The translations under genes were made by a program, and so were the position numbers. DNA of 53,845 nucleotides, taken from the IMG/VR virus record IMGVR_UViG_3300042486_000458, positions 1 through 53,845 of that record; one strand, 5' to 3'. The notes under the pieces were generated by a model that searched no databases, was not told the DNA's origin, and saw only the letters and a list, made by a program, of their open reading frames with translations. This document shows, one piece after another, positions 278 to 7,103 of this stretch. The stretch's first letter is position 1. Each line of letters starts with the position of its first letter. The DNA is from a virus. Its lineage: Duplodnaviria > Caudoviricetes.

Positions 278-1042
278 GCTCAATTTGATAGGAAATATAA
301 TAATACAAACTACTATACGGATACATCTGGGTACGTATCTGCTGGTATAGCGTTAGGAGTTGGTAAATTCGGGTTTGAATGCGCTGCGTTATCTTGGCGT
401 ATGTATCAAGGGGGTAATTTTTGGTCAGGATGGGCAGCGTTCCTGTCATTTTTTAAAGATGTTGCCAAACTCCCATTAGATTGTAGTAAATATATTCACT
501 GGGAAAATGCGGCCATACACGGCTCTTTTCGCATTATGCATTCTGATTTCTGTATGGTTTCAGATCGGCCTAGGGTATTAAAACTTGATGACCAAGGACG
601 CGCACATTGCGAAACAGGGCCATACATACAGTGGGCAGACGGTTCAGGTATATATGCATGGCATGGTACGAGAGTGCCAGCTATTTGGATTGAGGATAAA
701 TCATCTTTGACACCTGAAATTGCTTTAACTTGGGAAAATGTAGAGCAACGCAGGGCTGCTTGTGAGATACTTGGTTGGCATAATGTGCTTGAGCATCCTA
801 GCCTAAACCCGAAGATTATTGATACTGATGAACCGCATATCGGTGAGTTAATCGAGGTTGATTTACCTGATGCGCCAAAGCAGCGGTTTCTAAAGGTGCA
901 ATGTGGCACGGGTAGAACATTTGCTTTATCTATAAATGATAGAAAGTATAATACTGCTTTACACGCCAATGCTGCCATAGGTGGATGGAGGCATGATAGC
1001 AACGATGACCCAATGAATTTCATTCCAATGTTTAGAACTTGA
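2..1042 (+). CDS. C-terminal part of a DUF6745-like repeat protein (gene starts at 53260 and crosses the junction)
   Basis: Frame 2 is open from base 2 through the AT(D/Y/H)A/ATRD repeats into the 401..1042 ORF. Motifs GRAHCETGPYIQWADGSGIYAWHG, ENVEQRRAACEILGW and LKVQCGTGR are typical of DUF6745-type phage proteins. Confidence 0.8.
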   Translation, partial: ATYAATDAATYAATYAATRDATDAATYAATRDATRDATDAATYAATRDATHAATDAATRDATYAATHAATDAATRDATYAATDAATYAATDAAQFDRKYNNTNYYTDTSGYVSAGIALGVGKFGFECAALSWRMYQGGNFWSGWAAFLSFFKDVAKLPLDCSKYIHWENAAIHGSFRIMHSDFCMVSDRPRVLKLDDQGRAHCETGPYIQWADGSGIYAWHGTRVPAIWIEDKSSLTPEIALTWENVEQRRAACEILGWHNVLEHPSLNPKIIDTDEPHIGELIEVDLPDAPKQRFLKVQCGTGRTFALSINDRKYNTALHANAAIGGWRHDSNDDPMNFIPMFRT

Positions 1043-1068
1043 TTTTTAAAACCAAAAGGAGAAGTAAA

Positions 1069-1488
1069 ATGGAAGTAGTAAAATTAACGCATGATATGTT
1101 CAAGTCAGGGCAGCCAATAGCGCAAGGAGAGGCTAGAATATGGCTTAAGCAATACGCACCCAAAAGTGTGCTTGATAAATTAGGAAAACTTAAAAATCTT
1201 CAAGAGCTTAAACTTGAAAACGGTATGCTTATTGTCGCGCATTCCGAATCAGGGCATCACCACGTTCTTGAGCCTGTTGCAAAAAACATGCCCATATCGC
1301 AAGCAGCAAAGCTACTGATTGATGACACGAATGCACTAATTGGTGAATTACAAATAGCAAATGATTGCTACTTGTTGCACCAAAGAGGGCACGATACTCA
1401 TAAAGCGTTTTTATTACCAGCAGGTACGTATGTCAGGTCTTTGGATGAGGAAACTTCTCCGGAAGGCTGGCGCAGAGTGGCTGATTAA
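1069..1488 (+). CDS. His-rich small partner of the DUF6745-like protein (cupin-like metal-binding motifs)
   Basis: AGGAG RBS before ATG 1069. Motifs QGE, AHSESGHHH, HQRGHDTH, LPAGTY and terminal RRVAD. Confidence 0.7.
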   Translation: MEVVKLTHDMFKSGQPIAQGEARIWLKQYAPKSVLDKLGKLKNLQELKLENGMLIVAHSESGHHHVLEPVAKNMPISQAAKLLIDDTNALIGELQIANDCYLLHQRGHDTHKAFLLPAGTYVRSLDEETSPEGWRRVAD

Positions 1489-1504
1489 GAAAGGAATATA
1501 TATC

Positions 1505-1918
1505 ATGAACTTAGATTTAAAAAACTTAAGCCTTGAACAGTTAGTCGCGGAAGCGAAGGCGGCGAAGGGTATGAAAAAACAATGGGACGATCATTTATCG
1601 TGCGTGTTAAGCGAAATTGTTTTGCGGAACAATGATAGAATAAACGACCAACTCGCGCAAAAAGATGATCCATTCGGTACTGTGCGCGTGGATGATTTGA
1701 AGTTTACCGTTCCGAAGGCTGTTATTTGGGATCAGGAAAAGCTCGCAAGGCTTCATTCTGAAATCAGCAATGCGGGTGATAATCCTGATGAATACATGGC
1801 TGTAAATTACAAAGTGCGGGAAGCTGCGTTTAAGAATTGGCCTACGCATATTCAGGAGTGTTTCGCAGATGCGCGTACTGTGAAGCAAGGAACAATCAAA
1901 CTAGAGCTGGAGGATTAG
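1505..1918 (+). CDS. Conserved phage protein of the replication/recombination module
   Basis: AAGGA RBS before ATG 1505. Sits upstream of the AAA ATPase/SSB genes. Confidence 0.7.
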   Translation: MNLDLKNLSLEQLVAEAKAAKGMKKQWDDHLSCVLSEIVLRNNDRINDQLAQKDDPFGTVRVDDLKFTVPKAVIWDQEKLARLHSEISNAGDNPDEYMAVNYKVREAAFKNWPTHIQECFADARTVKQGTIKLELED

Positions 1919-1921
1919 TAT

Positions 1922-2314
1922 ATGGACCAAAGAATACCTGATTTATCACAAACAAGATTGGCAGCGGATACATTGCTGGCAGCTTGTCATTTAAGGGCTT
2001 TAAAGGCTGGCTGGTGGAATTCCCTTGAAACAGGCGAGCATATCAGAAGGCCAGTGCCTGAGCTTTTATGCTTGATCCATAGCGAGATTAGTGAAGCTCT
2101 TGAAGGGTATCGCAAGTCTTTGCGTGATGATAAATTACCACATAGGGAAATGCTGGAAGTCGAGCTTGCCGATGCGGTAATACGAATTTTTGATATGGCT
2201 GGCGGCTATGGTTTAGACATAGGCGGCGCGATAGCAGAAAAACTAGAGTACAATAGTAACCGCGAGGATCATAAAGTTGAAAATCGCAAACAACAAAACG
2301 GAAAAAGGATATAG
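1922..2314 (+). CDS. MazG-like nucleotide pyrophosphohydrolase
   Basis: LIHSEISEALE...EVELADAVIRIFD all-alpha NTP-PPase acidic motif. Confidence 0.8.
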   Translation: MDQRIPDLSQTRLAADTLLAACHLRALKAGWWNSLETGEHIRRPVPELLCLIHSEISEALEGYRKSLRDDKLPHREMLEVELADAVIRIFDMAGGYGLDIGGAIAEKLEYNSNREDHKVENRKQQNGKRI

Positions 2315-2316
2315 AT

Positions 2317-2490
2317 ATGAGTGACTTGATTGATAAAAAGTTATTGCAACACAAAACAACAGCATTGCTTGAGTTTCTGGGTCAGCAAGATATGACGAGC
2401 GCAGAATGCCAATTGGTTATGGCAACAGCAACTGATTTTATTCGCACTCAAAGTATAAGAGGTTTACTTTTAGGAGGCCATGATGCTTAA
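2317..2490 (+). CDS. Small hypothetical protein (57 aa, not in ORF track)
   Basis: ATG 2317 after AAGGA; fills the gap between neighbours; MSDLIDKKLL...GGHDA. Confidence 0.6.
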   Translation: MSDLIDKKLLQHKTTALLEFLGQQDMTSAECQLVMATATDFIRTQSIRGLLLGGHDA

Positions 2491-3259
2491 CATCGAAAAG
2501 CGAAAACCTAAGCCACCAAGGATTTTAATTTATGGTCCTCAAAAGATTGGTAAATCAACATTTGGAGCGGCTGCACCTAATCCAATATTTTTACCGACAG
2601 AAGATGGGCTTGATAACTTGAGTGCGGATTCTTTCCCGCTTGCGAGGGATTGGGCCACGGTTATGAATAATTTAACCGAGTTATGCACAAAAGATCATAG
2701 CTATCAAACACTTGTTGTTGATAGCGTCGATTGGCTTGAGCGTCTTGTCTGGGATCAGGTTGCTAAAGAAAACGGCAAAAAGCAGATTGAGGATATAGGG
2801 TATGGCAAAGGGTATTTGATGGCTATTGATTTATGGCGCGAATACTTGGAAGCCTTGGACTATCTTCGATCTGAAAAGAATATGCTTATCATTCAGATCG
2901 CACATTCCGAAATTAAGCGTTTTGAAAACCCTGAAACAGATGGTTATGATCGGTACGTTATCAAGCTGCATAAAAATGCTGCTTCAGTCCTAATGGAATA
3001 CGCCGAGATTATTCTTTTTGCTAATTACTATGTTGGCGTAAAGAAAAGCAAGAATGGATTTTCCGAAACATCTAAAGCTGTGGGTTCTGGTGAACGTATT
3101 CTTTACACAGAAGAACGACCAGCATTTATTGCAGGGAATAGGTACGACCTACCAACCGAAATTCCATTTGATAAGAATGGAGAGTATTGGAATGTGATAG
3201 CGCAACACGTTCCGTTTTTTAAAGCGCAATTTATTAACGAGGAGACTACAAATGGCTAA
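2480..3259 (+). CDS. AAA-family ATPase (Sak4-like annealing recombinase)
   Basis: Walker A GPQKIGKS, Walker B LVVDS, GYGKGY and IAH motifs; followed by SSB and exonuclease. Confidence 0.85.
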   Translation: MMLNIEKRKPKPPRILIYGPQKIGKSTFGAAAPNPIFLPTEDGLDNLSADSFPLARDWATVMNNLTELCTKDHSYQTLVVDSVDWLERLVWDQVAKENGKKQIEDIGYGKGYLMAIDLWREYLEALDYLRSEKNMLIIQIAHSEIKRFENPETDGYDRYVIKLHKNAASVLMEYAEIILFANYYVGVKKSKNGFSETSKAVGSGERILYTEERPAFIAGNRYDLPTEIPFDKNGEYWNVIAQHVPFFKAQFINEETTNG

Positions 3260-3752
3260 ATTATTTGAACCTTTCAATATCGCAGATGTGCCTGAGAATC
3301 AGTACGAACTGATTGCGCCGGGCAAGTATCAGGCAATGATCGTCGCAAACACTTTGAAGGAAAATAAGGCAAAAGACGGTGCTTACTACGAGCTTGAGGT
3401 TTCTATCCAGACGCCAAGCGGAAGTAAAACACTGAAAGAAATGCTGAATATCCAGAACAAGAACGAAACAGCAGTCAGAATTGCGCAGCAAACACTGCGT
3501 GATATTTGTATTGCTTGTAACAAAACTTCTATTCAAGACCTTGATGAAGTCATGAATATCAGGATGCTTGTTAATGTTGTTGTTGAAGGTGTTGGCAAGA
3601 AATATACCGACTCAACAACAGGTGAGGAAAAGGAAAGTAAGGGGCAAAACCGTATTAAGAAATACGAGCCTTACAATGCAAATGCAGCAACACAGCAGGC
3701 GCAGGCTAGCACGCAGGCGACTGATAACCGCCCGATCTGGCAGAAGCGTTAA
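3252..3752 (+). CDS. DUF669-like single-stranded DNA-binding protein
   Basis: IAPGKYQAMI...NRIKKYEP, Ala/Gln-rich tail ending PIWQKR; synteny after the Sak4-like gene. Confidence 0.75.
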   Translation: MAKLFEPFNIADVPENQYELIAPGKYQAMIVANTLKENKAKDGAYYELEVSIQTPSGSKTLKEMLNIQNKNETAVRIAQQTLRDICIACNKTSIQDLDEVMNIRMLVNVVVEGVGKKYTDSTTGEEKESKGQNRIKKYEPYNANAATQQAQASTQATDNRPIWQKR

Positions 3753-3761
3753 GTAAAAATC

Positions 3762-3796
3762 AGCCCTAAGCATGGCTTAAAACTGCTTATTTTTTT
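3762..3796 (+). promoter_or_regulatory. Candidate H-type RNA pseudoknot followed by a U tract
   Basis: AGCC 3762-65 pairs with GGCT 3774-77; TAAGCA 3767-72 pairs with TGCTTA 3784-89. Confidence 0.55.
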
Positions 3797-3808: not shown

Positions 3809-4513
3809 ATGTCAGCACCAACACCACGCGATCCTATTCTGGACGCGATTGATGAAATATTGATTAAAGACAACGAGAATCAGCCCAATAGAGATTATAT
3901 CGGGGCTTCCATTGTTGGTGAACCGTGTTCGCGTAAGGTATGGATTAAGTACAATACGCACCATAAGGAAAAAATGAGCGCAGAATCAGTCCGCCGTATC
4001 AATGATGGCCATAGATGTGAGGCCGTAATGGCATCACTACTCAAGCGCGTGCCAAACGTGGAGCTTATAACGCATGATGAGGCTGGGCAGCAATACGGTT
4101 TTAAGAATGGCGTTATGCGCGGTCATTATGATGGCGTTATAAACGGCATTAGAGGACTTTCCACTTGGGCGATATGGGAACACAAGGCAACAAATGAGAA
4201 GAATTTTAACAAGTTGGTAAAACTTGCCTCGAACCTTGAACATATGGCGTTGCAGCAATGGAATCCTGTTTATTACGCACAGGCCGTTGTCAATATGCAC
4301 CATGAGAAGTTGGATTACCATTATATGACAGTATCAACCGCAGGACTGCGTGATTATACCAGCGTATTGACAGAGGCAAACCCGACATTTGCGGAAGGGC
4401 TGATTACGAAGGCAAATAGGCTGGCGACAATGAAAGAGCCACCACAGAAGATTGGCGGTAAGGATTATTTCGGATGTAAGATGTGCTGCTTTTATGAGGT
4501 ATGCCATGCTTAA
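3809..4513 (+). CDS. Cas4-like PD-(D/E)XK exonuclease with Fe-S cysteines
   Basis: YIGAS..GEPCSR, GHYDG, WEHK, YAQ and C-terminal CKMCCFYEVC. Confidence 0.8.
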   Translation: MSAPTPRDPILDAIDEILIKDNENQPNRDYIGASIVGEPCSRKVWIKYNTHHKEKMSAESVRRINDGHRCEAVMASLLKRVPNVELITHDEAGQQYGFKNGVMRGHYDGVINGIRGLSTWAIWEHKATNEKNFNKLVKLASNLEHMALQQWNPVYYAQAVVNMHHEKLDYHYMTVSTAGLRDYTSVLTEANPTFAEGLITKANRLATMKEPPQKIGGKDYFGCKMCCFYEVCHA

Positions 4514-7103
4514 CTTGCGTTACTATCAGCGCGATGCAGTCGATTCTGCGTGGCGATACTTACAATCCAACCATGGCAATCCGCTGATTGTGATCCCGAC
4601 CGGCGGAGGTAAATCGGCAGTATTATCGAAAATAATAGAAGAGGCAATGCAATACGATCAGGCGCGTATCATTGTCGCCACGCACGTTAAGGAATTGGTG
4701 CAACAGAATTACGAGGAGTATATAGGCTTATCACCTTTTGCGCCTGCGGGTATTTACAGCGCAGGACTAAATCGGCGTGATCATCATGCGCGTATCTTAT
4801 TCGCTGGCATCCAGTCTATTTATAACAAGGCCGAAAAGCTGCAACGCTGCGATTTGCTACTTATTGATGAGTGCCACACTATAGCTCAGAAAGATGATGG
4901 CAGGTGGCGCACGTTTCTAGGCCATATGCAGGCGATTAATAGAGGTATGCGGATTATTGGCCTGACAGCCACACCATACAGACTTGATAGCGGTATGCTT
5001 ACCACAGGCGAGAATAAAATATTTGATGATATTTGCTATGAATACCCGTTGCTCAGAGCAATTGAAGATGGATACTTATGCCCTATCGTGCCGACCACTA
5101 TGGCAACGCGGTATGATTTATCGAATGTGCGGACACTTGGCGGCGATTACAAACAAGATGAACTTGAAGCGGCTTTTAATATTGATGAAAAAACAATGAG
5201 GGCCATTGATGAAATAGAAGCCTACGGACAAGACCGCCGTAGCTGGCTTATATTCGCCGCTGGTAACAATCACGCTTATGCCATACATGAGGAATTAAAG
5301 AAACGTGGCTATCTTGGTGCAGTTGTAACGAAGGATACCAACAATACAGACCGCGATAGAGCAACAGCAGAGATAAAGAATTATAAGATTAGGTATTTGG
5401 TGAATAACAAGGTATTCACAACTGGTTTTAACGCCAAGAATATTGATCTGATTGCCGACTTTGGCGCGACTAAATCCGCTGGTTTACATGTTCAAAAACT
5501 CGGGCGCGGCACGAGAACAATTGGCGCAAATATTGAACAGAGCATTGCGAACGGAAAATCTAATTGTATATCCAGTGGATCTTTAGTTTTGACTAATTAC
5601 GGCCTAATTCCTATTGAAAAAATTACGAAAAATATGAAAGTTTGGGATGGTATTGATTTTGTAAATCACGATGGTATTATATTTCGCGGTGTTAAAGAAT
5701 GCATAAAATATGCTGGTTTAATAGCAACCCCAGATCATAAGGTATTGACAAAAAATGGATGGAAAAGTTTTAAAGAGTGCGCGGACAATAACATTGGAAT
5801 TAGAGTTGCGGAAAAAAATGGGGAAGCAATACAATTTTCTAGAAATATATTCCGATCAGATTCAAGAAAAAAAAGGATCGAAGAGGTCCTATGTTTTAAC
5901 AAAATGCGTTTTGTGCCAAAAGATATCAATGAAGGAATATACGAGTTTAATGATGTCAAAAGCTGGTTGCAGAAAATGTGGGAGAAAAAGAAACAAAAGC
6001 AAGCCAGTTTTTGGTGTTCCAAAATGGTTATGGGGGAGGTGCAATTCAGCGAAGCAGAGGTGTGTAAACAAAAGAAATCAAAGTTACAAAAATTATGGAG
6101 GAAGGGGGGTGCAATTCAAATTTGGGACTGCGAATCATATGGGGAAATATATAATGGAGAACCTTGGGTTAAACGCAGAATTACAAATAGACAGAATAGA
6201 CAACAATGGCCACTACGAGCCCGGAAATTTAAGGCTAGTAAAACCCAAAATAAATATGAACAATCAAAGGACAAGTTTTGGGACAAAAAATATGCACTTA
6301 TTCAGAAAGGAGTACCCGCAGGTAAGATATGCAGACTCTACAATAATAAGACTGTTAAGAATGGGTCTAACTCCTCAAGACATAGAGCATCGCTTTTTCA
6401 ATCTAAAGTCATGCAAACCGAAAGGGAAGTATGGGACATACTCAATTGCGGACCAAGAAATTCTTTCTGTGTTAATGGATTAATTGTTCATAATTGTGTC
6501 TTGCTCGATTTTGCCCGCAACGTGGATTACCACGGGCCACTTGATAAGATACGCGGTAGGGATAAATCATCAAAGGGCGATGCTGATGCACCAGTCAAGG
6601 TTTGTCCGCAGTGCAATCAGGTTTGCTTTGCGGGATTGCGCACATGCTTTAAATGCGGTTATGAATTTCCATTTGATGAGCAGAATAAAATAAGAACGGA
6701 TGGTGGCGATAATGCCATACTATCCACACAGATTGAACCTGAGTGGCATAAGGTTGCAAGTGTCGCGTATGATTTGCACCAGAAGGAAGGTAAAACGCCA
6801 AGTATGCGGGTATCTTATTTTACCTTTAATGGCATATACCGCGAATGGATATGTTTCGAGCATAGCGGATTTGCGAAGAAAAAAGCGCAAACGTGGCACA
6901 TGAACAGGCTTTTTAGAGAGGAAATACCAACAACGATAGATGCGGCTCTAAAGTTAAAGTATCCGAACCCGACCAAAATACTTGTCCTTCAAGATGGAAA
7001 ATACCCACAGATATTGGATTATGATTTTAAAACTTCGACAAATGAAGAAGAAGTTAAAACTTATAGGGGTATGGATGATGATGAAGATTATATCCCGTTT
7101 TAA
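4506..7103 (+). CDS. SF2 DEAD/DEAH-like helicase with C-terminal zinc finger, intein-containing
   Basis: LRYYQ, PTGGGKS, DECH, GLTATPYR, QKLGRGTR, CPQC..CFKCG. ATG 4506 follows GAGG. Confidence 0.92.
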   Translation: MLNLRYYQRDAVDSAWRYLQSNHGNPLIVIPTGGGKSAVLSKIIEEAMQYDQARIIVATHVKELVQQNYEEYIGLSPFAPAGIYSAGLNRRDHHARILFAGIQSIYNKAEKLQRCDLLLIDECHTIAQKDDGRWRTFLGHMQAINRGMRIIGLTATPYRLDSGMLTTGENKIFDDICYEYPLLRAIEDGYLCPIVPTTMATRYDLSNVRTLGGDYKQDELEAAFNIDEKTMRAIDEIEAYGQDRRSWLIFAAGNNHAYAIHEELKKRGYLGAVVTKDTNNTDRDRATAEIKNYKIRYLVNNKVFTTGFNAKNIDLIADFGATKSAGLHVQKLGRGTRTIGANIEQSIANGKSNCISSGSLVLTNYGLIPIEKITKNMKVWDGIDFVNHDGIIFRGVKECIKYAGLIATPDHKVLTKNGWKSFKECADNNIGIRVAEKNGEAIQFSRNIFRSDSRKKRIEEVLCFNKMRFVPKDINEGIYEFNDVKSWLQKMWEKKKQKQASFWCSKMVMGEVQFSEAEVCKQKKSKLQKLWRKGGAIQIWDCESYGEIYNGEPWVKRRITNRQNRQQWPLRARKFKASKTQNKYEQSKDKFWDKKYALIQKGVPAGKICRLYNNKTVKNGSNSSRHRASLFQSKVMQTEREVWDILNCGPRNSFCVNGLIVHNCVLLDFARNVDYHGPLDKIRGRDKSSKGDADAPVKVCPQCNQVCFAGLRTCFKCGYEFPFDEQNKIRTDGGDNAILSTQIEPEWHKVASVAYDLHQKEGKTPSMRVSYFTFNGIYREWICFEHSGFAKKKAQTWHMNRLFREEIPTTIDAALKLKYPNPTKILVLQDGKYPQILDYDFKTSTNEEEVKTYRGMDDDEDYIPF
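5565..6494 (+). mobile_element. Intein (310 aa) in the helicase
   Basis: Block A CISSGSLVLT, block B TPDH, block F/G EVWDI...NGLIVHN, +1 Cys. Removing it restores GKSN/CVLLDFARNVDYHGP. Confidence 0.92.
5755..6483 (+). CDS. HNH homing-endonuclease-like protein nested in the intein, +1 frame
   Basis: CVLC/CRKCG zinc motifs, KQRC..KNYGGRGV, QIDRIDNNGHYEPGNLR..NMNN. Alternative start ATG 5818. Confidence 0.85.
   Translation: MDGKVLKSARTITLELELRKKMGKQYNFLEIYSDQIQEKKGSKRSYVLTKCVLCQKISMKEYTSLMMSKAGCRKCGRKRNKSKPVFGVPKWLWGRCNSAKQRCVNKRNQSYKNYGGRGVQFKFGTANHMGKYIMENLGLNAELQIDRIDNNGHYEPGNLRLVKPKINMNNQRTSFGTKNMHLFRKEYPQVRYADSTIIRLLRMGLTPQDIEHRFFNLKSCKPKGKYGTYSIADQEILSVLMD

What the first reader, a model, noticed from the sequence alone, without database searches (positions are those of the whole stretch)
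5565..6494. Intein whose homing endonuclease is a separate gene overprinted in the +1 frame
Seen: the 310-aa helicase intein has intact splicing blocks, but its in-frame middle has no endonuclease motif and reads like Lys/Trp/Gln-rich filler. The +1 frame (5755-6483) encodes a full HNH protein (zinc CxxC pairs, YKNYGGRG, IDRIDNNGHYEPGN). It starts just after block B and stops three codons before the terminal HN. Both frames stay open for 243 codons in AT-rich DNA. Established: canonical inteins carry the endonuclease in frame. Inference: this is a dual-coding mobile element, in which splicing hides the insert while the nuclease is made as a free protein uncoupled from helicase expression. Possible routes are ATG 5755/5818 (a TTGACA lies at 5745) or a frameshift at the A7 run 5812-5818. 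I cannot confirm novelty without a literature search.
Basis: partly seen in the sequence, partly recalled or inferred. Interest (0 to 1): 0.92.

Follow-up and report, generated by a model that had tools for sequence, protein, structure and literature searches.

The report
Intein with out-of-frame homing nuclease
A self-splicing protein insert (intein) in a phage helicase gene carries its presumed DNA-cutting homing enzyme in a second, overlapping reading frame; the overlap is real, under selection and widespread, but this kind of arrangement was first described in 2025.

Summary
The helicase ORF 4452-7103 holds a 310-codon class-1 intein (5565-6494). A 242-codon ORF in the +1 frame (5755-6483) encodes a phage protein of the families that PHROGs labels HNH endonuclease.

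This is not an error. Of 156 related sequences examined, 145 could be scored. All 145 have the nuclease in +1, both splicing lobes in frame 0 and the host frame fully open. Synonymous shuffles of the nuclease gene predict 16.9 host-frame stops in the window; none is seen. Free-standing relatives carry 27-46 stops in that frame.

Codon-position variability switches frame twice. The splicing lobes are selected in the host frame and the middle in the +1 frame. AlphaFold2 gives a Hint fold joined by a roughly 190-residue disordered spacer in the host frame, and a well-folded protein in +1.

How the nuclease is translated is unresolved. The A7 run is not conserved (1 of 82), and TTGACA did not score as a promoter. 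No conserved catalytic His was found, so the nuclease chemistry is inferred.

Inteins with out-of-frame nucleases were published in 2025-2026 for other nuclease families. This is therefore a new, large member of a known kind.

The parts
4452..7103 (+). SF2 (ResIII/DEAD, RadD-like) helicase precursor ORF containing the intein; likely start is ATG 4506
   Evidence: ORF. ResIII E 3e-23, Helicase_C 3e-8; phrog_16 DNA helicase 2.7e-79. P0003 has 865 aa.
5565..6494 (+). Class-1 intein in the helicase frame (310 codons), inserted at GKSN|C just after motif VI (QKLGRGTR); the +1 nucleophile Cys is at 6495-6497
   Evidence: intein-less relatives read NGKxx-C(L/I)LLDFARN without interruption. C1, T55, H58, D291, N310 and C311 are invariant in 79 sequences.
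5565..5828 (+). N-terminal splicing lobe (blocks A, B, N4), read and selected in the host frame
   Evidence: pLDDT 95-97 for residues 1-80. Foldseek hits to the Ssp DnaB, Npu DnaE and Mtu RecA mini-inteins; host codon position 3 is the most variable in this stretch.
5829..6404 (+). Host-frame spacer of about 190 codons: kept free of stops, not conserved as protein, predicted disordered
   Evidence: pLDDT 40-54 and no secondary structure for residues about 92-280; the consensus is all x; 21% mean identity against 44% in the +1 frame.
6405..6494 (+). C-terminal splicing lobe (blocks F, G: VWDILNCGPRNSF...LIVHN), host frame
   Evidence: pLDDT 88-96; host position 3 is the most variable in the last three bins (about 23 codons).
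5755..6483 (+). +1-frame ORF (242 aa plus stop) encoding the HNH-labelled homing-endonuclease-family protein; its last 20 or so codons are a passenger tail over blocks F and G
   Evidence: phrog_374 at 2.1e-21, phrog_3377 at 1.5e-18; mean pLDDT 86, tail residues 221-242 low; 74 BFVD matches at E<=1e-3, several of the listed 50 named HNH or homing endonuclease.
5818..5820 (+). Alternative start ATG of the nuclease; it aligns with the ATG/TTG-GTG position where +1-frame selection begins and with the N-terminus of a free-standing relative
   Evidence: ATG 35 and TTG 15 of 81 at column -1; GTG 34 and ATG 2 of 81 at column 0; free-standing L075 begins MKNRMGEQYNFL..
5905..5979 (+). Four invariant Cys (C51, C54, C72, C75 of the +1 protein), a presumed zinc ribbon
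   Evidence: each Cys is present in 79 of 79.
6184..6270 (+). Beta-beta-alpha core of the +1 protein (QIDRIDNNGHYEPGNLRLV...NMNNQR) with D146, R147, Y154, N158, N170 and R172 conserved
   Evidence: strands 144-147 and 159-162, helix 164-169; residue counts. PacI HNH at Z 5.4, rmsd 3.6-3.8, 78-82 residues, model residues 75-174.

Best explanation
The insert is a mobile class-1 intein whose two splicing lobes are read in the helicase frame. The DNA between the lobes is a separate gene in the +1 frame.

In the helicase frame, that middle is only a stop-free, disordered linker of about 190 residues. It leaves with the intein when the protein splices, so the helicase is restored.

In the +1 frame, the same DNA encodes a folded protein of about 220-240 residues. 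It has a small beta-barrel, a Cys4 zinc ribbon, a beta-beta-alpha core and a helical tail. It belongs to a phage family of free-standing, HNH-labelled homing endonucleases.

This protein is most likely made as its own polypeptide by internal initiation (ATG 5755 or ATG 5818). It would then cut or nick intein-less helicase alleles near GKSN/CVLLDF and so drive homing.

Shown: the dual coding, the selection on each frame, the two folds, and the sporadic distribution among alleles. Inferred: splicing, translation of the +1 ORF, nuclease activity and its target.
For: 1. Architecture is conserved.
- 156 sequences were examined and 145 could be scored. All 145 have the nuclease in +1 relative to the N-lobe, the C-lobe in frame 0 and the host frame fully open. 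The third frame has a median of 17 stops, range 6-34.
- The 80 metagenome loci were retrieved with the host-frame intein alone, so they are unbiased with respect to the +1 frame. Every one of them has a +1 match.
- In genome contigs, 58 of 80 nuclease relatives are intein-embedded in +1 with an open host frame. None was seen in frame 0.

2. Both frames are kept open by selection.
- Across 82 clusters (90% nucleotide identity), synonymous shuffles predict 3.3-17 host-frame stops (mean 11.3). The observed number is 0 in all 82.
- Three free-standing relatives carry 27, 46 and 44 stops in that frame.

3. Selection switches frame twice.
- Host codon position 3 is the most variable over blocks B/N4 and over blocks F/G.
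- Nuclease codon position 3 is the most variable in between (0.52-0.72).
- Mean amino-acid identity in the middle is 44.1% in +1 against 21.4% in the host frame. The +1 value is the higher in 3321 of 3321 pairs.
- In strain variants of this very locus, 7 of 10 substitutions inside the ORF fall on nuclease position 3. In the C-extein, 16 of 17 fall on host position 3 (my arithmetic).

4. Folds.
- The host-frame model has a Hint fold at pLDDT 95-97 and a spacer at 40-54. It matches solved mini-inteins.
- The +1 model has a mean pLDDT of 86.

5. Mobility.
- The closest helicases (59-68% identity) lack the insert and read straight through the site. P0004 has the same intein.
- The intein has 35.5% GC against 43.7% for the exteins.
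- The same intein lineage sits in helicases, PolA and DnaB, at five or more insertion sites.

6. No indels appear in independent contigs from three other studies.
Against: - No expression data exist. No RNA run was listed, and no proteomics or ribosome profiling is available.
- The start site is unresolved. There is no strong Shine-Dalgarno sequence before ATG 5755 or ATG 5818. 17 of 82 representatives have no ATG/GTG/TTG at the aligned start position.
- No His is conserved in 79 family members. The position where the first His of an HNH motif would be expected reads D-R.
- Pfam HNH_3 is matched by only 1 of 79 members, at E 0.0029. NCBIfam and PDB sequence searches give nothing.
- The best solved-structure match is PacI at Z 5.4, below the level the tool calls clear.
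- Two relatives (L176, L213) carry an internal stop in the nuclease frame while the host frame stays open. The nuclease can therefore decay, and the window's copy could in principle be inactive although intact.
Confidence: 0.8

Rival explanations
1. Assembly or sequencing artefact: the nuclease is really in frame, and two compensating indel errors (for example in the A7, A8 or G6 runs) created the apparent frame change.
For: Homopolymer runs lie in the region. The window is a metagenomic contig.
Against: A frame that is merely out of phase would carry about 17 stops, yet it has none. The same +1 layout is found in 145 of 145 scorable relatives, and also in complete isolate chromosomes and deposited phage genomes. 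Contigs from three other studies cover most of 5604-6697 between them, with 0 gaps and no indel rows.
Confidence: 0.01
2. The nuclease is not made as a free protein. It is made by programmed +1 (or -2) ribosomal frameshifting from the helicase frame. The product would be a fusion of the N-extein, the intein N-lobe and the nuclease, ending just before block G.
For: The window has GAA AAA AAT G (A7, 5812-5818) exactly where +1-frame selection begins. Initiation signals are weak. Internal out-of-frame initiation inside a translated gene is usually inefficient (general knowledge).
Against: A homopolymer of 6 or more within 60 nt upstream of the aligned start occurs in only 1 of 82 representatives, the window itself. 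No other shared slippery motif stood out in the aligned sequences, although I did not search for one systematically. In 65 of 82 representatives a start codon lies at or within four codons upstream of the aligned start position. In 49 of 82 an upstream ATG is connected to the ORF. A free-standing relative starts at the same aligned position.
Confidence: 0.08
3. The +1 ORF in this window is an intact but no longer functional relic. The element persists only because splicing keeps it harmless, and the ORF is open by recent descent.
For: L176 and L213 show internal stops in the nuclease frame with an open host frame. Mini-intein forms (124 aa) occur at a PolA site that also holds 312-aa forms. 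No conserved catalytic His was found.
Against: Family-wide purifying selection acts on the +1 frame. Strain variants of this same locus change mainly nuclease third positions (7 of 10). All residues that are invariant in the family are present in the window copy.
Confidence: 0.07
4. The insert does not splice. It stays in the helicase as a tolerated loop, as was proposed for the ShiLan insertion in phage methylases.
For: The Pfam Intein_splicing match is below threshold (E 0.001, 19 bits against a 35.8 cut-off). Splicing was not tested.
Against: Cys1, TxxH, the block-F Asp, the terminal Asn and the +1 Cys are invariant in 79 sequences. The lobes model as a Hint fold at pLDDT above 95 and match solved mini-inteins with probability 1.00. 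The insert sits next to helicase motif VI, where a 310-residue loop is unlikely to be harmless (inference).
Confidence: 0.03

Closest known systems
[quoted passage not shown]
   Same: The intein is complete, with splicing lobes in the extein frame. The nuclease is encoded on the same strand in another frame between the lobes. The in-frame middle forms no recognisable structure. The authors propose origin by invasion of an intein by a free-standing nuclease gene.
   Different: Their nuclease is endonuclease VII-like and lies in frame 3, and their hosts are actinophages. Across all four of their non-canonical HEN types, the exteins are DNA polymerase, minor capsid, terminase and thymidylate synthase. 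Here the nuclease belongs to the YxxYGxRG...DRIDNxGxYxxGN family labelled HNH and lies in frame 2 (+1). It sits in helicase, PolA and DnaB genes of phages and prophages from several bacterial phyla.
Cyanobacterial dnaX intein with an out-of-frame LAGLIDADG endonuclease (Phillips, DeSimone, Gogarten; bioRxiv 10.64898/2026.09.14.751524; I read the abstract and section 17; that text cites Gorbalenya 1998, which I did not read)
   Same: It is a broadly distributed intein with the nuclease in an overlapping frame. Selection is frame-dependent: strong on the nuclease frame and relaxed on the overlapped intein frame. Mini-intein relatives exist. No in-frame version is known.
   Different: The nuclease family (LAGLIDADG) and the frame differ. 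The host is a cellular dnaX gene of one phylum. The present family spans many exteins and phyla.
ShiLan domain: hidden out-of-frame HNH in a mycobacteriophage DNA methylase (Arsenault et al., Genes 2025, PMC11855218; I read the abstract, section 3 part 1 and section 4)
   Same: The insertion is stop-free in the host frame, while an HNH with zinc fingers is encoded in another frame. How the nuclease is translated is open there too.
   Different: ShiLan has no splicing domains and is predicted to stay in the protein, and its HNH lies in frame 3. Here clear Hint lobes flank the nuclease gene. L237 may be a ShiLan-like case for the present nuclease family.
Fractured genes: split inteins with a free-standing endonuclease gene between the halves (Dassa et al. 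2009, PMC2677866; I saw only the search listing and the start of the abstract)
   Same: The nuclease is a separate gene placed between the N- and C-terminal intein parts.
   Different: There the host gene is physically split into two ORFs and splicing is in trans. Here the host frame stays continuous through the nuclease gene.
Canonical inteins with an in-frame HNH domain (cited as Dalgaard et al. 1997 in the 2025 preprint; I did not read it)
   Same: An intein combined with an HNH-type nuclease, in phages.
   Different: There the nuclease is a domain of the intein polypeptide. Among the intein-embedded loci scored here, none had the nuclease in frame 0 (145, 58).

Membership tests
Class-1 intein (Hint domain) | N-terminal Cys/Ser nucleophile and block-B TxxH | tested here: met
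   C1 (5565-5567) and TPDH are present. C1, T55 and H58 are invariant in 79 sequences.
Class-1 intein (Hint domain) | C-terminal Asn followed by a Cys/Ser/Thr +1 residue, and the block-F Asp | tested here: met
   The sequence reads ...VHN|C. D291, N310 and C311 are invariant. The penultimate His varies in relatives (S, A, K, Q), as listed.
Class-1 intein (Hint domain) | Hint fold | tested here: met
   The AlphaFold2 lobes have pLDDT 88-97. Foldseek matches the Ssp DnaB, Npu DnaE and Mtu RecA mini-inteins at E 3e-4 to 2e-3, probability 1.00, 86-107 aligned columns, rmsd 2.3-3.2. The Pfam Intein_splicing match is sub-threshold.
Class-1 intein (Hint domain) | In-frame insertion at a conserved site, with insert-free alleles in relatives | tested here: met
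   P0122-P0124 and P0126-P0130 read straight through NGKxx-C/T-(L/I)LLDFARN.
Class-1 intein (Hint domain) | Protein splicing activity | not testable with these tools
   This needs an expression assay.
HNH / His-Me finger nuclease | Beta-beta-alpha-metal fold | tested here: inconclusive
   The model has strands 144-147 and 159-162 and helix 164-169. The best solved match is PacI HNH at Z 5.4, rmsd 3.6-3.8, 78-82 residues, below the tool's clear level. Foldseek against the PDB gives nothing at E<=1e-3. BFVD gives 74 matches at E<=1e-3, several of those listed named HNH or homing endonuclease.
HNH / His-Me finger nuclease | Conserved catalytic His (first H of the motif) | tested here: not met
   No column of the 79-sequence alignment has conserved His. 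The expected position reads D146 (78 of 79) and R147 (79 of 79). H153 is His in only 44 of 79.
HNH / His-Me finger nuclease | Middle Asn and distal Asn/His of the motif | tested here: met
   N158 is present in 79 of 79. Position 170 is N in 71 and H in 7 of 79. Assigning these residues to the motif positions is my inference.
HNH / His-Me finger nuclease | Match to curated HNH profiles | tested here: inconclusive
   PHROG phrog_374 (2.1e-21), phrog_3377 (1.5e-18) and phrog_2081, all named HNH endonuclease, match. Pfam HNH_3 is matched by 1 of 79 members at 0.0029. Pfam and NCBIfam give nothing for the window protein. The PDB sequence search shows no nuclease.
Intein with out-of-frame homing endonuclease (as described in 2025-2026) | Nuclease ORF on the same DNA between the splicing blocks, in a frame other than the extein's, with the extein frame uninterrupted | tested here: met
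Intein with out-of-frame homing endonuclease (as described in 2025-2026) | Purifying selection on the nuclease frame and relaxed selection on the overlapped intein frame | tested here: met
Intein with out-of-frame homing endonuclease (as described in 2025-2026) | Translation of the out-of-frame ORF, and homing | not testable with these tools
   No RNA run was listed, and no proteomics is available.

The most novel reading that the evidence does not exclude
The +1 placement may be an adaptive, stable design rather than a frozen accident. A whole lineage of inteins has spread through helicase, PolA and DnaB genes of phages across bacterial phyla with its nuclease always out of frame. In this reading, the nuclease dose is set by weak internal initiation, independently of the abundant replication protein. 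The host-frame read-through serves as a selected disordered tether. The nuclease itself would be a His-less variant of the His-Me finger, with D-R...Y...N...N at the active site and possibly a different chemistry (for example a nickase).
Probability: 0.25. Interest if true: 0.75.

Novelty: new member of a known kind. Interest (0 to 1): 0.55.

Why it matters
Inteins with an out-of-frame nuclease were called rare in the 2025-2026 papers that I read. This family is large. I scored 145 loci in viral and metagenome contigs, which fall into 82 clusters at 90% nucleotide identity. A further 58 loci came from genome contigs, and some of these duplicate the viral set.

The family spans at least three replication proteins and five or more insertion sites. 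It occurs in prophages of Bacillota, Actinomycetota, Pseudomonadota and other phyla. The nuclease is always in +1 and never in frame.

That makes it a clean natural system for three questions:
- How can a folded protein be overprinted on a frame that must only stay open?
- How is an embedded gene translated inside a translated gene?
- Do inteins acquire nucleases by invasion of free-standing genes?

It also matters for annotation. Gene callers report only the long helicase or polymerase ORF (for example 'DNA polymerase I' in the Streptococcus Javan phages). Both the intein and its nuclease therefore go unannotated.

Tried and rejected
- blastn of 5400-6700 against phage records found no match.
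- The search for related loci with the single +1 protein in viral contigs found no relative. It worked with the three-sequence alignment A1.
I therefore could not fetch DNA for the protein hits P0004-P0121. I used the search for related loci on metagenome contigs with a host-frame intein alignment instead.
- Foldseek of the +1 model against the PDB gave nothing at E<=1e-3.
- The PDB sequence profile search gave only weak zinc-ribbon matches.
- Pfam and NCBIfam on the window protein and on free-standing relatives found no nuclease family.
- The protein atlas returned viral hypothetical clusters, one with I-HmuI_NUMOD-like on 28% of members. This is a lead only.
- The promoter scan did not list TTGACA 5745, and promoter-like sites were at chance level.
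- Rfam found no match at E<=1 on 5300-6800, so nothing suggests a group I or II intron.
- For RNA evidence, no RNA holder was listed.
- The notes from the search of earlier findings concern other parts of the window and did not bear on this finding.
- Rejected readings: an indel artefact, a frameshift at the A7 run as a family mechanism, and a non-splicing insertion. See the rival explanations.
- Rows set aside before the 145-of-145 count:
  - 5 loci cut by contig ends;
  - L073, at a contig end;
  - L075, a free-standing gene;
  - L022, where the N-lobe is replaced by another gene;
  - L056 and L062, where the locus breaks inside block F;
  - L074, where two inteins confused the parser. By eye its second intein also has a +1 nuclease.
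- In one search, 3 of 80 loci were left unclassified (L215, L216, L237).
- L001, L002 and L149 were left out of the alignments used for folding.
- Literature. I ran three searches. I found no paper describing a +1 HNH-family gene inside helicase, PolA or DnaB inteins. Subscription journals and the supplements of the 2025 preprint were not visible to me.


Full report
**Observation.** One + strand ORF (4452-7103) encodes an SF2 helicase: ResIII E 3e-23 and Helicase_C 3e-8, and phrog_16 at 2.7e-79. It is interrupted after GKSN by 310 codons, CISSGSLVLT...LIVHN (5565-6494), followed by Cys 6495-6497. The +1 frame holds an ORF from ATG 5755 to TAA 6481-6483 (242 aa). This ORF matches the PHROG families phrog_374 (2.1e-21) and phrog_3377 (1.5e-18), both named HNH endonuclease. 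Pfam gives no nuclease family for it.

**First lead.** A tblastn of the +1 protein against phage records put its best matches inside genes annotated as DNA polymerase, in Streptococcus Javan phages and in a Gardnerella phage. In both records the polymerase ORF contains an intein, CIAEGELVLT...LVHN|C, with a filler-like middle. The nuclease is again a 257-267 codon ORF in +1. The layout is therefore shared across different host genes and across independent genome projects.

**Survey.**
- A protein search with the host-frame intein gave 119 hits among 629 candidates. They are helicases, PolA and one DnaB.
- None of the 121 stored proteins holds the nuclease in frame (blastp, E<=1e-3).
- I collected loci in three other ways:
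  - 73 from viral contigs, using a nuclease alignment;
  - 80 from metagenome contigs, using a host-frame intein alignment;
  - 80 from genome contigs, using the nuclease alignment.
- Of the first 156 sequences (155 loci plus the window), 145 could be scored. All 145 have the nuclease in +1 relative to the N-lobe, the C-lobe in frame 0 and the host frame open throughout. The +2 frame has a median of 17 stops, range 6-34.
- The 11 rows set aside are listed under Tried and rejected.
- The metagenome set was retrieved without reference to the +1 frame, and every locus in it has a +1 match.
- In genome contigs, 58 of 80 loci are intein-embedded in +1 with an open host frame. Another 19, all more distant relatives, are free-standing genes whose -1 frame is closed. 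Three were unclassified.
- Named hosts include Anaerococcus, Peptoniphilus, Gardnerella, Corynebacterium, Clostridium, Allobaculum, Methylobacterium and Aggregatibacter. There are also MAGs of Lentisphaeria, Ignavibacteriaceae, Alphaproteobacteria and Gammaproteobacteria.
- Some viral-contig and genome-contig loci are the same DNA, so the two counts should not be added.

**Is the double openness selected?**
- The 145 inteins collapse to 82 clusters at 90% nucleotide identity.
- With each nuclease protein held fixed and its synonymous codons shuffled (300 shuffles each), the host frame gets a mean of 11.3 stops, ranging from 3.3 to about 17 per cluster. The largest stop-free fraction in any cluster is 0.013. 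The observed number of stops is 0 in all 82.
- For the window the expectation is 16.9 stops, and 0 of 300 shuffles are stop-free.
- The reverse test, holding the host-frame peptide fixed, expects 6.0 stops in the nuclease frame and observes none.
- Three free-standing relatives have 27, 46 and 44 stops in the frame that would be the host frame.
- From the genetic code, a host-frame stop arises only when a nuclease codon ending in T is followed by a codon beginning AA, AG or GA. The host frame can therefore be kept open by synonymous choices alone, at no cost to the nuclease protein. This may explain why +1 is the frame used.

**Which frame is selected where?**
- I built a codon alignment of the 82 representatives and measured nucleotide diversity by codon position. 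It switches twice.
- Over the first 24 or so aligned codons of the +1 ORF, which overlap blocks B and N4, host position 3 is the most variable (0.55-0.61).
- From about PExVGxQ(F/Y)G to about 20 codons before the stop, nuclease position 3 is the most variable in every bin (0.47-0.72).
- Over the last three bins (about 23 codons), which overlap blocks F and G, host position 3 is again the most variable.
- In the central region, mean pairwise amino-acid identity is 44.1% in the nuclease frame and 21.4% in the host frame. The nuclease frame is the higher in 3321 of 3321 pairs.
- The conserved host-frame snippets, such as NRQNRQQW.LR, are shadows of the nuclease motif DRIDNNGHYEPGN.

**This locus in other samples.**
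- Contigs from three other studies cover most of 5604-6697 between them, with 0 gaps and no indel rows. These are contigs, not raw reads. Run X1 may be the source of the window.
- Of the 10 substitutions listed inside 5755-6483, 7 fall on nuclease codon position 3.
- Of the 17 substitutions listed in the C-extein (6503-6647), 16 fall on host position 3 (my arithmetic).
- Some of the variant contigs have a depth below 5.

**Structures.**
- With a 79-sequence alignment, the host-frame intein models as two confident lobes. Residues 1-80 have pLDDT 95-97 and residues 281-311 have 88-96.
- These lobes are joined by about 190 residues at pLDDT 40-54 with no secondary structure.
- The model matches solved mini-inteins: Ssp DnaB, Npu DnaE and Mtu RecA, at E 3e-4 to 2e-3, probability 1.00.
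- The +1 protein models at a mean pLDDT of 86. Its parts are:
  - a small beta-barrel, residues about 13-69;
  - a Cys4 site (C51, C54, C72, C75);
  - a beta-beta-alpha core, residues 144-170;
  - helices up to residue 216;
  - a low-confidence tail, residues 221-242, over blocks F and G.

**Is it an HNH nuclease?**
- The evidence for is limited to three items. The PHROG names match. BFVD gives 74 matches at E<=1e-3, several of the listed ones named HNH, homing endonuclease or AP2. PacI, an HNH restriction enzyme, is the best nuclease match among solved chains, at Z 5.4, rmsd 3.6-3.8 and 78-82 residues.
- Against this, Pfam HNH_3 is matched by 1 of 79 members at 0.0029.
- NCBIfam and PDB sequence searches give nothing.
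- No His is conserved. The expected position reads D146 and R147 (78 and 79 of 79). Y154 and N158 are invariant. Position 170 is N or H in 78 of 79.
- I therefore call it a member of an HNH-labelled homing-endonuclease family with a His-less motif. Its activity is inferred from that family and from the element's mobility.

**Mobility.**
- Most of the listed helicases with 59-68% identity in the N-extein (P0122-P0124, P0126-P0130) are 536-574 aa long and read straight through the site. P0004 carries the same intein. P0125 has a different, LAGLIDADG-type insert.
- The intein has 35.5% GC against 43.7% for the exteins.
- Insertion sites among the representatives include the following:
  - PolA A-x-L-A|CGYG;
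  - helicase GKxx|C(L/V)xL;
  - KGFD|C, VCGL|C and others.
- One PolA site (TLG|C) holds both 124-aa mini forms and 312-aa forms.
- Two relatives (L176, L213) have one stop in the nuclease frame with an intact host frame. This is what one would expect if the nuclease can decay while the host frame must stay open.

**Translation of the nuclease is unresolved.**
- At the alignment column where +1-frame selection begins, 50 of 81 sequences have ATG or TTG. At the next column, 36 of 81 have GTG or ATG. In 17 of 82 representatives there is no start codon from four codons upstream to one downstream of that column.
- The window's ATG 5818 sits at this position. A free-standing relative (L075) begins four residues upstream of the same motif.
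- An upstream ATG is created by the host Tyr49 codon TAT followed by G in 59 of 82 representatives, and it is connected to the ORF in 49. In the window a stop intervenes, and the first ATG is 5755.
- The A7 run is unique to the window (1 of 82).
- TTGACA 5745 was not listed by the promoter scan, which found sites only at chance level.
- No Rfam family matches the region.

**Literature.**
- Three full-text searches were run.
- The kind is known. bioRxiv 10.1101/2025.01.02.630785 reports actinophage inteins with an endonuclease VII-like nuclease in frame 3 and with antisense LAGLIDADG or VSR-like nucleases. It proposes invasion of inteins by free-standing nuclease genes.
- bioRxiv 10.64898/2026.09.14.751524 shows frame-dependent selection in the dnaX intein. 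It states that few broadly distributed examples are documented.
- PMC11855218 describes a hidden out-of-frame HNH without splicing domains.
- I found no description of this +1 family in helicase, PolA or DnaB inteins. Supplements were closed and subscription journals are not in the library.

**Verdict.**
The dual-coding interpretation is strongly supported. The proposed expression routes are not supported.
- The finding is a new and unusually large member of a recently described kind.
- Interest is moderate. It is not a new principle, but it is a robust, widespread and experimentally tractable example with an unusual His-less nuclease motif.

Noticed in passing
L237:1636-2280 (+), inside a stop-free frame L237:3-2531: A relative of the same nuclease family (YHNYGGRGIKVC...LDRINNNGHYEPGNVRW) lies out of frame inside an 843-codon open frame that shows no intein blocks, in a gammaproteobacterial MAG. 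It may be a ShiLan-like non-intein 'hidden nuclease', or a chance open frame in GC-rich DNA.
   Followed up: partly
L074:600-2400: This PolA gene has two inteins. The second (CLAQGTLVLT...RLVHN|CVQAIARD) carries in +1 a nuclease of the YKNYGGRGITVCRRW...LDRIDNNKGYSPENCHW type, which looks closer to the free-standing forms.
   Followed up: partly
L022:1880-3400: This locus is rearranged. The nuclease frame runs on from an unrelated upstream ORF, and the N-extein and N-splicing lobe are missing. The C-lobe and the PolA C-extein are intact in the host frame.
   Followed up: partly
L056 and L062, near 3117: The host frame ends inside block F (...VYDIP*), and unrelated phage genes follow. The intein and PolA are truncated at a rearrangement junction, while the nuclease ORF stays open.
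   Followed up: partly
L176:2384-3160; L213:2500-3178: There is a single internal stop in the nuclease frame while the host frame (971 and 1253 codons) stays open. These are candidate decaying nucleases, or sequencing errors.
   Followed up: partly
P0125 (915 aa helicase, 68% identical in the N-extein): This close helicase relative reads straight through the GKxx|C site but carries Hom_end_hint and LAGLIDADG_3 Pfam domains. It therefore has a different intein elsewhere in the same gene family.
   Followed up: no
window 5565-6494 against 4452-5564 and 6495-7103: The intein has 35.5% GC, while the exteins have 43.7% and the whole window 43.6%.
   Followed up: yes
P0090, P0092, P0093, P0095, P0099 compared with P0084, P0087, P0089, P0094: The same PolA insertion site (TLG|C...HN|CGF) holds 124-aa mini-inteins in some contigs and 312-aa forms in others. 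No DNA was available to check the +1 frame of the long forms.
   Followed up: no
L001 (Streptococcus phage Javan113) CDS 880-3762; L002 (Gardnerella phage vB_Gva_AB1) CDS 892-3795: The deposited annotations call the whole 960-967 aa ORF 'DNA polymerase (I)'. They list neither the intein nor the embedded +1 nuclease ORF.
   Followed up: yes
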